Positions 7,631 through 45,973 of a stretch of DNA of 64,000 bases are shown here, piece by piece. Source of the DNA: a virus. Taxonomy: Duplodnaviria; Caudoviricetes. Positions within the stretch are counted from its first letter, which is position 1; the number at the start of each line of letters is the position of its first letter. The stretch is from positions 1 to 64,000 of IMG/VR virus record IMGVR_UViG_3300009111_000005; one strand, given 5' to 3'. The notes under the pieces were generated by a model, which saw nothing but the letters and a program-made list of their open reading frames with translations, ran no database searches and was not told where the DNA came from. A program made the translations under genes and the position numbers.

Positions 7631-8207
7631 GGTCCAGAAGATACGCAAGTATCATCTGGCCTCGTATAACGCGGGCTGCGCCGAAGCCCACGCTATGCGG
7701 TGATAGCACCGGACCTCCGGGTCGTAGCCGGAGCGGCACATGATTCTGGGCACGCGCCCTCAGTGCCCCTGGGATGTACAGCGCCCCCGACGTTATTCGG
7801 GGAGGGTAGTGCTCTGCACTAGGCAGGGGCTTCGCACGGGATACCACCTCCACCCGATGCGGAGTTTCACCAGGCTGATAGAAAAGCAGGACCACGTCGC
7901 CTGGCGTGGGGAGGTAGGGTGCGGCCCACGGCAGACCTCTAGCCGGGCCGTGACGTCGCACCCGGGGCTTCTCCGAGCCCGCCCAACCGGCCTTCGCTAG
8001 AGGGTGCCAAGGATCGCAGTCGCTCCCAAAGGGAGATGACCGATGTTGCGAGAACCTGGCGCAATGAGCACGAGGGCAAAGAGGAGATAGGACGTCGCGC
8101 CCGAAAGCGTCGACCGCATTGGGACACCACGTACGGGTCCTCGCCATCCCTGGTAAGGCGTGAACCGGGAAACAACAGAGGAACTGAGAATCGTTCTCTG
8201 TTGTTTT
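7631..8207 (+). ncRNA. candidate large structured ncRNA (~575 nt)
   Basis: no credible ORF; promoter upstream; more than 10 hairpins including GATAC-GCAA-GTATC; terminator at end. Confidence 0.55.
8170..8207 (+). terminator. intrinsic terminator-like hairpin
   Basis: AACAACAGAGGAAC / GTTCTCTGTTGTT followed by T residues. Confidence 0.55.
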
Positions 8208-8259
8208 GCTTCGACGTCAGAAACGGATACCCAAAACCGTCTCAATGAAAGGAGACACC

Positions 8260-45119: not shown

Positions 45120-45256
45120 AGTACTTGACAGACTACGTGCATTCCTTCATCCTGTAGCTCTGATGCACTCCATGCCCTTCCAGTACTTGTATTACCTACC
45201 TCGGCTCTTAGGTTAAGAGCCTTCGCGCACTCAACTCGACAACTGAATACGTACGC

Positions 45257-45331
45257 GGGTCGGTAGCCCAACTGGAAGCTGGCGCCAGCCTCAGGAGCTG
45301 GTTGTTGTGGGTTCGAATCCCTCCCGACCCA
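45257..45331 (+). tRNA. tRNA-Leu(CAG), short variable loop
   Basis: GGGTCGG/CCGACCC; CCAGC-CTCAGGA-GCTGG; V-loop TTGTT; A73. Confidence 0.85.
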
Positions 45332-45335
45332 CCGC

Positions 45336-45422
45336 GGAAGGTGCCCATAAGGCAGGCCGGGCCTGCGGCTGACTGTAGATCAGCTCCCGCACGGGCGAGT
45401 GGTTCGACTCCATCACCTTCCA
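45336..45422 (+). tRNA. tRNA-Tyr(GTA)
   Basis: GCTGA-CTGTAGA-TCAGC; long variable arm. Confidence 0.9.
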
Positions 45423-45428
45423 CCGTGT

Positions 45429-45503
45429 GCCGCGGTAGCCCAAATGGAAGCTGGCGCCAGGCTAAGGACCTGGAGGTTGCGGGTTCGAATCCCGCCCGCG
45501 GTA
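45429..45503 (+). tRNA. tRNA-Leu(AAG), short variable loop
   Basis: CCAGG-CTAAGGA-CCTGG; V-loop AGGTT; A73. Confidence 0.85.
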
Positions 45504-45507
45504 CTTC

Positions 45508-45581
45508 GGGTCGGTAGCCCAACCGGAAGTGGCCCCCGTCTCAAAAGCGGGCATATGCGGGTTCGAATCCCGTCCGACCCA
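45508..45581 (+). tRNA. tRNA-Leu(CAA), short variable loop
   Basis: CCCGT-CTCAAAA-GCGGG; V-loop CATAT; A73. Confidence 0.85.
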
Positions 45582-45973
45582 CTGAAGGGGATAAGGAACG
45601 GCGCCGCCTGCGCGAGAACGTTGCAGGTCCCCGTCTGACTGAAACAGTCGTTGAGTAGCCTCTCGGCCGGCGCCATCACGATTATAGCTTGCCGGCAGGA
45701 TCTCATCTTCGCTGGTGACGCTGATCATCTGGCTGTACCCGTACCCACCATAGAAAAAAGGCGCTGTGACCGTTTCCGATCAGAGCGCCTACCTTCGCCT
45801 CACGTTTCCGTTCAGCGAACAGACTACATGGTACAAGAAGGGTTCTGAGACGTCAACACTTTTCTTTAGGCCCATAGGGAAAGACCCAGGAGGGCCGTCC
45901 TGGGTCTTTCGAGAAGCTCGACAACAGGGAAAGAATGGCGACAGTCAAAGCGTATCGTAACGGCCCTTATTGG

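What the first reader, a model, noticed from the sequence alone, without database searches (positions are those of the whole stretch)
45257..45581. Three tRNA-Leu genes without the long variable arm, one with a rare A34 (AAG) anticodon
Seen: Leu(CAG), Leu(AAG) and Leu(CAA) have 5-nt variable loops and share an unusual D-arm GCCCAA-N2-GGAAG(C)TGGC and A73, while the neighbouring Tyr keeps its long arm. Known: bacterial tRNA-Leu is class II (long arm), and A34 anticodons other than Arg(ACG) are rare in bacteria and usually need TadA-type deamination to inosine. Inference: a distinct tRNA body that may evade host tRNA nucleases, need a phage synthetase or modifier, or be charged with a non-Leu amino acid, causing codon-specific recoding.
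Basis: partly seen in the sequence, partly recalled or inferred. Interest (0 to 1): 0.7.

Follow-up and report, generated by a model that had tools for sequence, protein, structure and literature searches.

The report
Phage-type short-arm leucine tRNAs
Three real phage tRNA genes read leucine codons but lack the long extra arm of bacterial leucine tRNAs; this build is common in phages and keeps the marks that the leucine-charging enzyme reads in E. coli, so it is an ordinary member of a little-described family, not a sign of recoding.

Summary
Window 45257-45581 holds tRNA genes with anticodons CAG, AAG and CAA. Each has a 5-nt variable loop, the shared D-arm and A73.

The same body recurs in over 100 viral contigs and over 100 bacterial genome loci, almost only with Leu anticodons, all six of them. 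In a viral sample chosen by an unrelated tRNA motif, 15 of 46 tRNA-Leu are short. Cultured phages (E. coli phage wV8, Vibrio phage KVP40, mycobacteriophages, Streptomyces phages) carry such genes annotated as tRNA-Leu.

The three tRNAs keep the published E. coli LeuRS identity set: A73, U8:A14, A15:U48, G18G19 and A20a. A chromosomal short-arm tRNA-Leu of Streptomyces coelicolor is leucylated by a normal LeuRS (Fan 2019). The held 87 kb, about half the genome, encodes no LeuRS-type synthetase and no deaminase.

AAG replaces GAG: the two never co-occur in 70 loci. Whether A34 becomes inosine is open; G37 argues against an E. coli-type TadA.

Best reading: ordinary phage leucine tRNAs charged by host LeuRS, a new member of a known kind. 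This scan noted the same design before on other DNA.

Side findings: the neighbouring "Tyr" gene has an unusual 8/4 fold, and a Tyr/Leu-rich mini-ORF precedes the block.

The parts
45257..45331 (+). tRNA-Leu(CAG), type I (5-nt variable loop UUGUU), G37, A73, no encoded CCA
   Evidence: Positive for the Leu feature set.
45336..45422 (+). Non-canonical tRNA-Tyr(GUA)-like gene: 8-bp acceptor stem, 4-bp T stem, 8-nt connector, 6-bp D stem with 3-nt loop, 6-bp anticodon stem, long variable arm, A73, G37
   Evidence: Missed by ARAGORN and the Rfam tRNA model; tRNA-Sec-like hit of 25.6 bits. Fold. Four-member family with 100% pairing and 7 compensatory pairs.
45429..45503 (+). tRNA-Leu(AAG), type I (variable loop AGGUU), A34, G37, G1.U72, A73
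   Evidence: AAG and GAG are mutually exclusive across loci.
45508..45581 (+). tRNA-Leu(CAA), type I (variable loop CAUAU), A36A37A38, A73; acceptor stem identical to that of Leu(CAG)
45163..45216 (+). Candidate leader mini-ORF MHSMPFQYLYYLPRLLG* just upstream of the Leu/Tyr block (inferred, not shown)
   Evidence: It holds the only 9-residue window with at least 3 Tyr and at least 3 Leu in all six frames of the 87-kb record. A parallel leader lies before the related array in L361.
45125..45153 (+). Promoter-like TTGACA-N17-CATCCT, below the scan threshold
   Evidence: Read from the sequence. The same TTGAC(A/T)-N17-CATC(C/A)T arrangement lies before the L361 leader, where the scan called TTGACT-17-CATCAT. 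Not called in the window.
45203..45221 (+). 8-bp hairpin (GGCUCUUA / UAAGAGCC, loop GGU) that contains the mini-ORF stop codon; no U-tract follows
   Evidence: Fold. No terminator-like site.
33028..34464 (+). First tRNA cluster of the phage: Glu(UUC), tmRNA, Thr(UGU), Ala(UGC), Gln(UUG), Lys(UUU), Val(UAC). All have canonical class I bodies and none has the Leu feature set.
8206..9609 (+). tRNA nucleotidyltransferase (CCA-adding enzyme)-like protein with an HD domain; fits tRNA genes that lack encoded CCA

Best explanation
The three genes are genuine leucine isoacceptors of a widespread phage and mobile-array lineage of type I (short-variable-loop) tRNA-Leu. They lack the class II arm but keep the D-arm and core of class II tRNA-Leu: a 3-bp D stem with a 13:22 mismatch, A14, A15 paired with U48, G18G19 preceded by 4 nt and followed by at least 3 nt, A20a, and A73. 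These are the elements that E. coli LeuRS is reported to read, whereas the arm and the anticodon are dispensable for it.

The tRNAs are transcribed as one block with an unusual tRNA-Tyr. They receive CCA post-transcriptionally, and the phage encodes a CCA-adding-type enzyme. Host LeuRS charges them with leucine.

They decode CUG (CAG), UUG (CAA) and CUU plus some CUC (AAG). Together these make up about 93% of the phage's Leu codons. AAG takes the place of the usual GAG tRNA.

Shown: the gene structure, the family, its Leu-specific features, its distribution, and the absence of a phage LeuRS or deaminase in the held half of the genome. Inferred: expression, charging with Leu, and the modification state of A34.
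For: - **Structure.**
- **Family.** The D-arm pattern gives 96 Leu of 98 tRNAs in viral contigs and 76 of 79 in bacterial genomes. All six Leu anticodons occur, at lengths of 74-79 nt in the viral set.
- **Frequency in a sample not selected on Leu.** 15 of 46 tRNA-Leu are 80 nt or shorter, against 1 of 33 Ser.
- **Leu-specific feature set.** U8, A14A15, GG spacing, non-Watson-Crick 13:22, U48 and A73 together are met by 12 of 15 short Leu and only 4 of 465 other short tRNAs in that sample. In this phage it is met by 3 of 3 Leu and 0 of 6 others. Long-arm Leu tRNAs in the same loci share A73, A15:U48, the 13:22 mismatch and the 4/3 GG spacing.
- **Direct biochemistry on a relative.** S. coelicolor type I tRNA-Leu(CAA) is leucylated by its single LeuRS (PMC6614811).
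- **Complete phage sets.** L075 and L031, with about 41 tRNAs each, have only short Leu tRNAs.
- **Cultured phages.** 257 records match, including wV8 Leu(UAG) of 77 nt and Leu(CAA) of 78 nt, and KVP40 tRNA-Leu-3 of 78 nt. Most listed matches are annotated tRNA-Leu.
- **Anticodon loops.** They keep G36G37 (CUN readers) or A36A37A38 (UUG reader), as expected for decoding Leu tRNAs.
- **Codon use.** CTC .36, CTG .23, CTT .22, TTG .12.
- **AAG versus GAG.** 0 co-occurrences in 70 loci with three or more Leu tRNAs: 8 have AAG only and 41 GAG only. My hypergeometric estimate is p of about 5e-4.
- **No phage synthetase or deaminase.** No PF00133, PF13603, PF00383 or PF14437 match in the 87-kb record.
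- **CCA-adding enzyme.** A CCA-adding-type enzyme is present.
Against: - Nothing here shows expression or charging.
- Fan et al. report that E. coli LeuRS and one Streptomyces LeuRS do not charge the S. coelicolor type I tRNA-Leu. Acceptance therefore depends on the host enzyme, and the host of this phage is unknown.
- The record is only about 49% complete, so a phage LeuRS or deaminase could lie in the missing half.
- Leu(CAG) has a U50.U64 mismatch in the T stem.
- With unmodified A34 the AAG tRNA would read CUC poorly, although CUC is 36% of the phage's Leu codons.
Confidence: 0.8

Rival explanations
1. Defence evasion. The short-arm design, together with the odd 8/4 Tyr tRNA, evolved so that phage Leu/Tyr tRNAs escape a host nuclease or toxin that recognises the class II shape. 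The phage would then restore decoding after the host Leu/Tyr tRNAs are destroyed. This concerns why the design exists and is compatible with Leu charging.
For: Short arms are much more frequent in phage and mobile-array Leu tRNAs than in bacterial core sets (PMC6614811 says almost all bacterial tRNA-Leu are type II). Leu and Tyr tRNAs sit in their own block behind a Tyr/Leu-rich mini-ORF. Related giant phages show the same block logic. The phage carries its own CCA-adding/HD enzyme.
Against: I found no nuclease known to read the variable arm of tRNA-Leu. The anticodon loops are canonical. Ser tRNAs in the same phages keep long arms. The same short-arm Leu genes occur as stand-alone chromosomal genes in Actinomycetota, where evasion is not an obvious need.
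Confidence: 0.12
2. Recoding. The tRNAs are charged with an amino acid other than leucine, so that CUG, CUU and UUG are partly reassigned in phage proteins.
For: The anticodon is not read by LeuRS, SerRS or AlaRS, so a body change could in principle switch identity. Allo-tRNAs with Leu anticodons insert Ser in E. coli (PMC5389517).
Against: There is no long arm for SerRS and no G3:U70 for AlaRS (3:70 is G-C or C-G). A73 and the full E. coli-type LeuRS set are present. The body is tied to Leu anticodons in about 97% of cases and covers all six. It is the only Leu tRNA type in phages with complete sets. A relative is leucylated in vitro (PMC6614811).
Confidence: 0.03
3. Dependence on a phage enzyme. 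The tRNAs need a phage-encoded LeuRS, or a phage TadA-like deaminase for A34, that lies in the unsequenced half of the genome.
For: The record is about 49% complete. Some LeuRS do not charge a type I tRNA-Leu (PMC6614811). E. coli TadA did not modify an AAG anticodon followed by G37 (PMC11066159).
Against: None was found in the held 87 kb. Phages of about 85-90 kb such as wV8 carry short-arm Leu tRNAs. I did not search them for a synthetase; I know of no LeuRS in that group, from my own knowledge only.
Confidence: 0.04
4. Non-functional or non-decoding genes: decaying copies, or decoys that bind a host factor without being used in translation.
For: There is one T-stem mismatch in Leu(CAG). No CCA is encoded. 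No close syntenic relative keeps this exact cluster.
Against: All three have intact cloverleaves, canonical T loops and canonical anticodon loops, and score 52-57 bits. The family is conserved across hundreds of phages. The anticodon choice matches phage codon use.
Confidence: 0.05

Closest known systems
Type I tRNA-Leu(CAA) of Streptomyces coelicolor (Fan et al. 2019, NAR, PMC6614811)
   Same: It is a bacterial-type tRNA with a Leu anticodon and a 5-nt variable loop, and the U8:A14 pair matters for charging. A normal LeuRS leucylates it, with no second synthetase.
   Different: It is chromosomal and a single isoacceptor. Its variable loop is ACAGC, so position 48 is C, whereas here it is U. 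In that system C74 rather than A73 was the critical 3'-end element. The window has three isoacceptors in a phage block, one with A34.
Short tRNA-Leu genes annotated in cultured phages, for example Escherichia phage wV8 (Felixounavirus; Leu-UAG 77 nt, Leu-CAA 78 nt) and Vibrio phage KVP40 tRNA-Leu-3 (78 nt)
   Same: The architecture matches: U8 A9, D-arm GCCC-AA-(2-3 nt)-GG-(3-4 nt)-GGC (UCCC...GGA in wV8 Leu-CAA), a short variable loop ending in U (5 nt in wV8 Leu-UAG) and A73. wV8 Leu-UAG and KVP40 have G1.U72, as does the window's Leu(AAG).
   Different: Their anticodons are UAG and CAA; none is AAG. They are AT-richer. I know of no biochemical work on them. Their hosts are Enterobacteria and Vibrio, whereas the window comes from an uncultured phage that earlier notes of this scan call a wetland phage.
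Canonical bacterial class II tRNA-Leu (E. coli, T. thermophilus)
   Same: A73, A14, A15:U48, G18G19 position, A20a, 3-bp D stem, and G37 or A37 according to the codon box.
   Different: The long variable arm of 10 nt or more is missing. Position 9 is A rather than G, and 13:22 is mostly C.A or C.U rather than G.A.
Bacterial A34 Leu tRNAs and TadA. PMC11066159 reports that Oenococcus oeni encodes four A34 tRNAs, two of them inosine-modified. PMC8266599 states that bacterial TadA generates I34 in tRNA-Arg and tRNA-Leu.
   Same: An AAG anticodon in a bacterial-type tRNA. Some bacterial TadA enzymes make I34 in tRNA-Leu.
   Different: No tadA was found in the phage record. The loop has A35 and G37. 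An AAG tRNA with the A37G change was not deaminated by E. coli TadA (PMC11066159). The modification state here is unknown.
Allo-tRNAs and (8/4) tRNA-Ser / tRNA-His of bacteria and phages (Mukai et al. 2017, PMC5389517)
   Same: This applies to the neighbouring Tyr gene only: an 8/4 acceptor branch, a Sec-like long D stem with a small loop, a 6-bp anticodon stem and a long variable arm, found in phage tRNA clusters.
   Different: The three Leu tRNAs are 7/5 with no arm, so they are not allo-tRNAs. The Tyr gene has A73 and GUA, which suits Tyr identity, plus a 7-8-nt connector. In my term searches of that paper, 8/4 structures in phages were named for Ser and His only.

Membership tests
Type I (short-variable-loop) tRNA-Leu | Leu anticodon (NAG or YAA) in a 7-nt loop with U33 | tested here: met
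   The loops are CUCAGGA, CUAAGGA and CUCAAAA.
Type I (short-variable-loop) tRNA-Leu | Variable region of 4-5 nt with no helix | tested here: met
   UUGUU, AGGUU and CAUAU. The Rfam alignments show class I geometry.
Type I (short-variable-loop) tRNA-Leu | E. coli-type LeuRS identity and core elements: A73, U8:A14, A15:U48, G18G19 spacing, A20a | tested here: met
   All are present in all three. The feature set is 80% sensitive and about 99% specific for short Leu in a viral sample not selected on Leu. The elements are those listed in PMC9976931.
Type I (short-variable-loop) tRNA-Leu | Leucylation by LeuRS | not testable with these tools
   Shown only for the S. coelicolor member (PMC6614811). 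E. coli LeuRS did not charge that member.
Type I (short-variable-loop) tRNA-Leu | Sequence kinship with other members (shared D-arm GCCCAA..GGAAG..GGC) | tested here: met
   The pattern gives 96 Leu of 98 tRNAs in viral contigs and 76 of 79 in genomes. With the anticodon masked, 34-48 of the top 50 neighbours are short Leu, though that database is enriched for the pattern.
Canonical bacterial class II tRNA-Leu | Long variable arm of 10 nt or more forming a stem-loop | tested here: not met
   The variable loops are 5 nt and the genes are 74-75 nt without CCA.
Allo-tRNA / Ser-inserting missense suppressor (Mukai 2017) | 12-bp acceptor branch in an 8/4 or 9/3 arrangement, plus a long V-arm and Ser identity | tested here: not met
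   The three Leu tRNAs are 7/5, have no V-arm and have A73. The neighbouring Tyr gene does show 8/4 and a V-arm, but its anticodon and A73 agree with each other.
Ala-inserting tRNAs with foreign anticodons | G3:U70 pair | tested here: not met
   3:70 is G-C, C-G and G-C.
I34 tRNA (TadA substrate) | A34 in a tRNA-Arg2-like loop (C32 U33 A34 C35 G36 A37 A38), and a deaminase available | tested here: inconclusive
   A34 is present, but positions 35 and 37 differ (A35, G37). No PF00383 or PF14437 match in the 87-kb record. An AAG tRNA with A37G was not modified by E. coli TadA. The host enzyme is unknown.

The most novel reading that the evidence does not exclude
The short-arm Leu tRNAs, the 8/4 tRNA-Tyr and the Tyr/Leu-rich mini-ORF could form one module. 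A leader-sensed spare set of nuclease-resistant class II-substitute tRNAs would be switched on when a host defence depletes Leu and Tyr tRNAs. Loss or remodelling of the class II shape would be what confers resistance.
Probability: 0.1. Interest if true: 0.7.

Novelty: new member of a known kind. Interest (0 to 1): 0.3.

Why it matters
For this window, the result removes a false alarm. Short-arm Leu tRNAs in a phage should not be read as evidence of codon reassignment or of a private synthetase.

More broadly, roughly a third of phage tRNA-Leu genes in a sample not selected on Leu lack the class II arm. Yet the only paper I could find on bacterial type I tRNA-Leu treats it as a rarity of Streptomyces and reports that E. 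coli LeuRS does not charge it. E. coli and Salmonella phages nevertheless carry such genes. Testing whether and how ordinary LeuRS enzymes charge them is a cheap experiment. It would refine the leucine identity rules and could yield compact Leu tRNA scaffolds.

Tried and rejected
- **Syntenic relatives.** I searched with the upstream C1 peptidase. Two relatives (71-76% identity) lack any tRNA downstream, so the cluster and its mini-ORF could not be checked by synteny.
- **Host inference.** BLAST of the phage tmRNA against five genomes of different phyla gave only short chance-level matches. The host stays unknown.
- **Whole-sequence neighbours in the control sample.** With the anticodon masked this did not separate isotypes, because GC-rich stems dominate. 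I replaced it with the D-arm and core feature test.
- **Terminator or attenuator after the mini-ORF.** No terminator-like site was found, and the leader region does not fold better than shuffles (z = 0.22). The attenuator reading is therefore left as a candidate.
- **Weak Rfam hits.** YrlA (22.8 bits), Plastid-ycf2 and others lie far below their gathering scores. They arise from tandem tRNA parts and were rejected.
- **Literature.** Eight full-text searches found no paper on short-arm tRNA-Leu in phages. The tRNA-array papers PMC4758250 and PMC8421152 returned no mention of it in my term searches.
- **tRNAscan-SE isotype models.** These are not available here.

Full report
**1. What is there**

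The window is the first 64 kb of an 87,370-bp IMG/VR viral record that CheckV rates about 49% complete.

ARAGORN finds nine tRNAs and a tmRNA. One cluster lies at 33.0-34.5 kb: Glu-UUC, tmRNA, Thr-UGU, Ala-UGC, Gln-UUG, Lys-UUU, Val-UAC. The other is the block in question: 45257-45331 Leu(CAG), 45429-45503 Leu(AAG) and 45508-45581 Leu(CAA). Rfam's tRNA model scores these three at 54.3, 57.1 and 52.6 bits, against a gathering score of 29.

My positional parse gives the following for all three:
- a 7-bp acceptor stem, U8 and A9;
- D stem GCC/GGC with a C13.U22 mismatch;
- a D loop beginning A14 A15, then 2 nt, G18G19, then AAG(C);
- a 5-bp anticodon stem and a 5-nt variable loop ending in U48;
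- a canonical T arm and A73, with no encoded CCA.

The surrounding genes are phage-like nucleotide-metabolism genes (ThyX, a deoxynucleoside kinase) and a papain-family protease.

**2. The body is a family, and it is specific for leucine**

The shared D-arm, written as a pattern, matched at least 119 viral contigs and at least 120 bacterial genome loci.
- Of 98 viral tRNAs that contain the pattern, 96 carry Leu anticodons. All six occur, at 74-79 nt.
- Of 79 in bacterial genomes, 76 are Leu.
- Most of the bacterial cases sit in dense tRNA arrays, with up to 34 tRNAs in 8 kb, in Cyanobacteria, Acidobacteriota, Planctomycetota and others.
- A few are stand-alone chromosomal genes in Actinomycetota.

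To avoid selecting on the Leu body, I fetched viral loci with an unrelated, generic D-arm motif. There, 15 of 46 tRNA-Leu are 80 nt or shorter (11 of 32 loci). The figures are 1 of 33 for Ser and 3 of 15 for Tyr.

Phages with complete tRNA sets (L075 and L031, about 41 tRNAs each) have only short Leu tRNAs.

In cultured phages, a 76-nt short Leu tRNA finds 257 INPHARED records. By organism name: Mycobacterium 71, Escherichia 41, Streptomyces 39, Vibrio 32, Salmonella 27. I checked two:
- Escherichia phage wV8 has Leu(UAG) of 77 nt and Leu(CAA) of 78 nt.
- Vibrio phage KVP40 tRNA-Leu-3 is 78 nt.

Both records annotate them as tRNA-Leu, and they have the same architecture as the window's genes.

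**3. Whom they would be charged by**

The review of tRNA identity (PMC9976931) states the following for E. coli tRNA-Leu:
- A73 is crucial, but the anticodon and the long arm are not.
- A15-U48, G18G19 and A20a are essential.
- Variants lacking the anticodon arm and the variable arm remain active.

All these elements are present in the three genes.

Across 347 short Leu tRNAs, position 15 is A in 345, and 15:48 is A:U in 275. Position 73 is A in 289; most of the rest look like one-base start offsets in the ARAGORN call. The 13:22 pair is non-Watson-Crick, and G18G19 is preceded by 4 nt and followed by 3 nt. The long-arm Leu tRNAs of the same loci show the same values, and other class I tRNAs do not.

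Taken together, these features are met by 12 of 15 short Leu and by 4 of 465 other short tRNAs in the control sample. In this phage they are met by 3 of 3 Leu and 0 of 6 others.

There is no G3:U70 and no arm for SerRS. The anticodon loops keep G36G37 in the two CUN readers and A36A37A38 in the UUG reader, as normal decoding Leu tRNAs do.

The one biochemical precedent is S. coelicolor type I tRNA-Leu(CAA). Its single LeuRS leucylates it. E. coli LeuRS and one other Streptomyces LeuRS do not (PMC6614811). Charging with leucine is thus the well-supported inference, but acceptance by the unknown host's LeuRS is not shown.

The held 87 kb has no match to class Ia synthetase cores (PF00133), the LeuRS domain PF13603, or deaminase folds PF00383 and PF14437. 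It does encode a CCA-adding-type nucleotidyltransferase with an HD domain at 8206-9609, which fits tRNA genes without CCA.

**4. The A34 anticodon**

A34 outside Arg(ACG) is rare but recurrent in phage tRNA sets. The pattern-selected viral loci hold 16 Leu(AAG) and 13 Thr(AGU) among 1,195 tRNAs. The tRNA-array survey also singled out these two anticodons (PMC4758250).

In 70 loci with three or more Leu tRNAs, AAG and GAG never co-occur: 8 have AAG only and 41 have GAG only. The hypergeometric p is about 5e-4. AAG therefore stands in for GAG as the CUY reader, as it does in this window.

From a crude ORF set, the phage uses CTC .36, CTG .23, CTT .22, TTG .12, CTA .05 and TTA .02. The three tRNAs address about 93% of Leu codons if AAG also reads CUC.

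In E. coli, an orthogonal tRNA with an AAG anticodon was about 15% converted to inosine. With the A37G change no inosine was detected, and the U:C reading ratio was 87:13 (PMC11066159). The window's loop has G37. Under an E. coli-like TadA, A34 would therefore stay unmodified and favour CUU. Other bacterial TadA enzymes do make I34 in tRNA-Leu (PMC8266599 abstract). This point stays open.

**5. The neighbour is not a plain Tyr tRNA**

The stretch 45336-45422 has a GUA anticodon and a long arm, but neither ARAGORN nor the Rfam tRNA model calls it. Its best hit is tRNA-Sec at 25.6 bits.

A pattern from its D-arm found three more distinct copies in large phage contigs: L359 (identical to L364), L075 and L361. 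All four are 87 nt and fit one structure:
- an 8-bp acceptor stem and a 7-8-nt connector ending in UAAG;
- a 6-bp D stem with a 3-nt loop;
- a 6-bp anticodon stem and a long variable arm;
- a 4-bp T stem and A73.

Every cell pairs (100%), 7 pairs show changes on both sides, and 0 of 500 shuffles reach these values. The eighth acceptor pair and the D stem never vary, so the choice of 8/4 over 7/5 rests on one further point: the alternative 49:65 pair would be A.C in all four copies.

In L075 this gene is the only Tyr tRNA of a 42-tRNA set, so it probably works as tRNA-Tyr. In L361 and L364 it directly follows Leu(CAG), as in the window. Mukai et al. described 8/4 tRNA-Ser and tRNA-His in phages, and allo-tRNAs (PMC5389517). 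This looks like the Tyr counterpart. The window's copy has G37 where the other three have A37.

**6. A candidate leader**

A mini-ORF, MHSMPFQYLYYLPRLLG, ends forty bases upstream of the first Leu tRNA (45163-45216). Its QYLYYLPRL stretch is the only 9-residue window with at least 3 Tyr and at least 3 Leu in all six frames of the 87-kb record. This test was chosen after seeing the ORF.

Two features flank it:
- It follows a TTGACA-N17-CATCCT promoter-like site.
- Its stop codon lies inside an 8-bp hairpin.

There is no U-tract, and the region does not fold better than shuffles.

In the related array of L361 (Ser, His, Cys, Trp, Leu, Phe, Tyr), a TTGACT-N17-CATCAT site is followed by a 39-codon ORF. 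That ORF ends in LWCSSLHLYSSLLFS and stops 17 nt before the first tRNA.

In L075 a 25-codon ORF and a strong terminator precede the 42-tRNA array.

Earlier notes of this scan describe such leaders in front of phage Leu/Tyr/Ser tRNA blocks in other genomes. Here it is a candidate only.

**7. Verdict**

The genes are ordinary members of a widespread, under-described phage and array lineage of type I tRNA-Leu that keeps leucine identity.

Recoding and dependence on a phage synthetase are unsupported. Defence evasion cannot be excluded but has no evidence here.

The scan has noted the same design before on other DNA.

Novelty: new member of a known kind. Interest: low to moderate.

Noticed in passing
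window 45336-45422; L359:25-111, L075:9244-9330 (-), L361:12882-12968: A tRNA-Tyr(GUA) with an 8-bp acceptor stem, 4-bp T stem, 7-8-nt connector, Sec-like 6-bp D stem and long arm. Four distinct copies occur in large phage contigs, with 100% pairing and 7 compensatory pairs. Standard tRNA finders miss it or place its ends wrongly. It may be an (8/4) tRNA-Tyr, a type that my term searches of the allo-tRNA paper did not find.
   Followed up: partly
window 45125-45221: A promoter-like TTGACA-N17-CATCCT is followed by the mini-ORF MHSMPFQYLYYLPRLLG*. This ORF holds the only Tyr/Leu-dense peptide window in the whole 87 kb, in all six frames. Its stop codon lies in an 8-bp hairpin just before the Leu/Tyr tRNA block, and no U-tract follows. 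It is a candidate codon-sensing leader.
   Followed up: partly
L361:11181-11362 and L075:9330-9600 (-): Related phage arrays also have leader-like ORFs. In L361, a TTGACT-N17-CATCAT site precedes a 39-codon ORF that ends in LWCSSLHLYSSLLFS, 17 nt before a Ser/His/Cys/Trp/Leu/Phe/Tyr array. In L075, a 25-codon ORF and a strong hairpin with a U6 terminator lie right before a 42-tRNA array.
   Followed up: partly
window 8206-9609 (+): A 467-aa protein has a PolyA_pol head domain and an HD domain, plus a sub-threshold match to tRNA nucleotidyltransferase domain 2 (PF13735). This makes it a phage CCA-adding/repair-type enzyme. None of the phage's nine tRNA genes encodes CCA.
   Followed up: partly
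L001-L239 (family survey): G1.U72 is the commonest first pair in short Leu tRNAs: 155 of 347, against 154 of 1,568 other class I tRNAs. The window's Leu(AAG), wV8 Leu(UAG) and the KVP40 Leu all have it. Its meaning is unknown.
   Followed up: no
L031:3942-4015 and control loci L242-L358: Some phage tRNA-Tyr genes are also short: 74 nt in L031, and 3 of 15 in the control sample. Loss of the class II arm is therefore not confined to Leu. Ser almost always keeps its arm (1 of 33 short).
   Followed up: no
window 33028-34464: All six tRNAs of the first cluster have U34 anticodons, which read A- and G-ending codons, and they sit beside a phage tmRNA with the tag ANDNVGKPLGFAPVALAA. This fits a phage that supplements A/U-ending codons.
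   Followed up: no
window 45759-45795 and 45881-45912: Two hairpins lie between the tRNA block and the converging minus-strand genes. One is followed by a T-run on the minus strand. They are likely terminators that close both transcription units. The scan did not call them.
   Followed up: no
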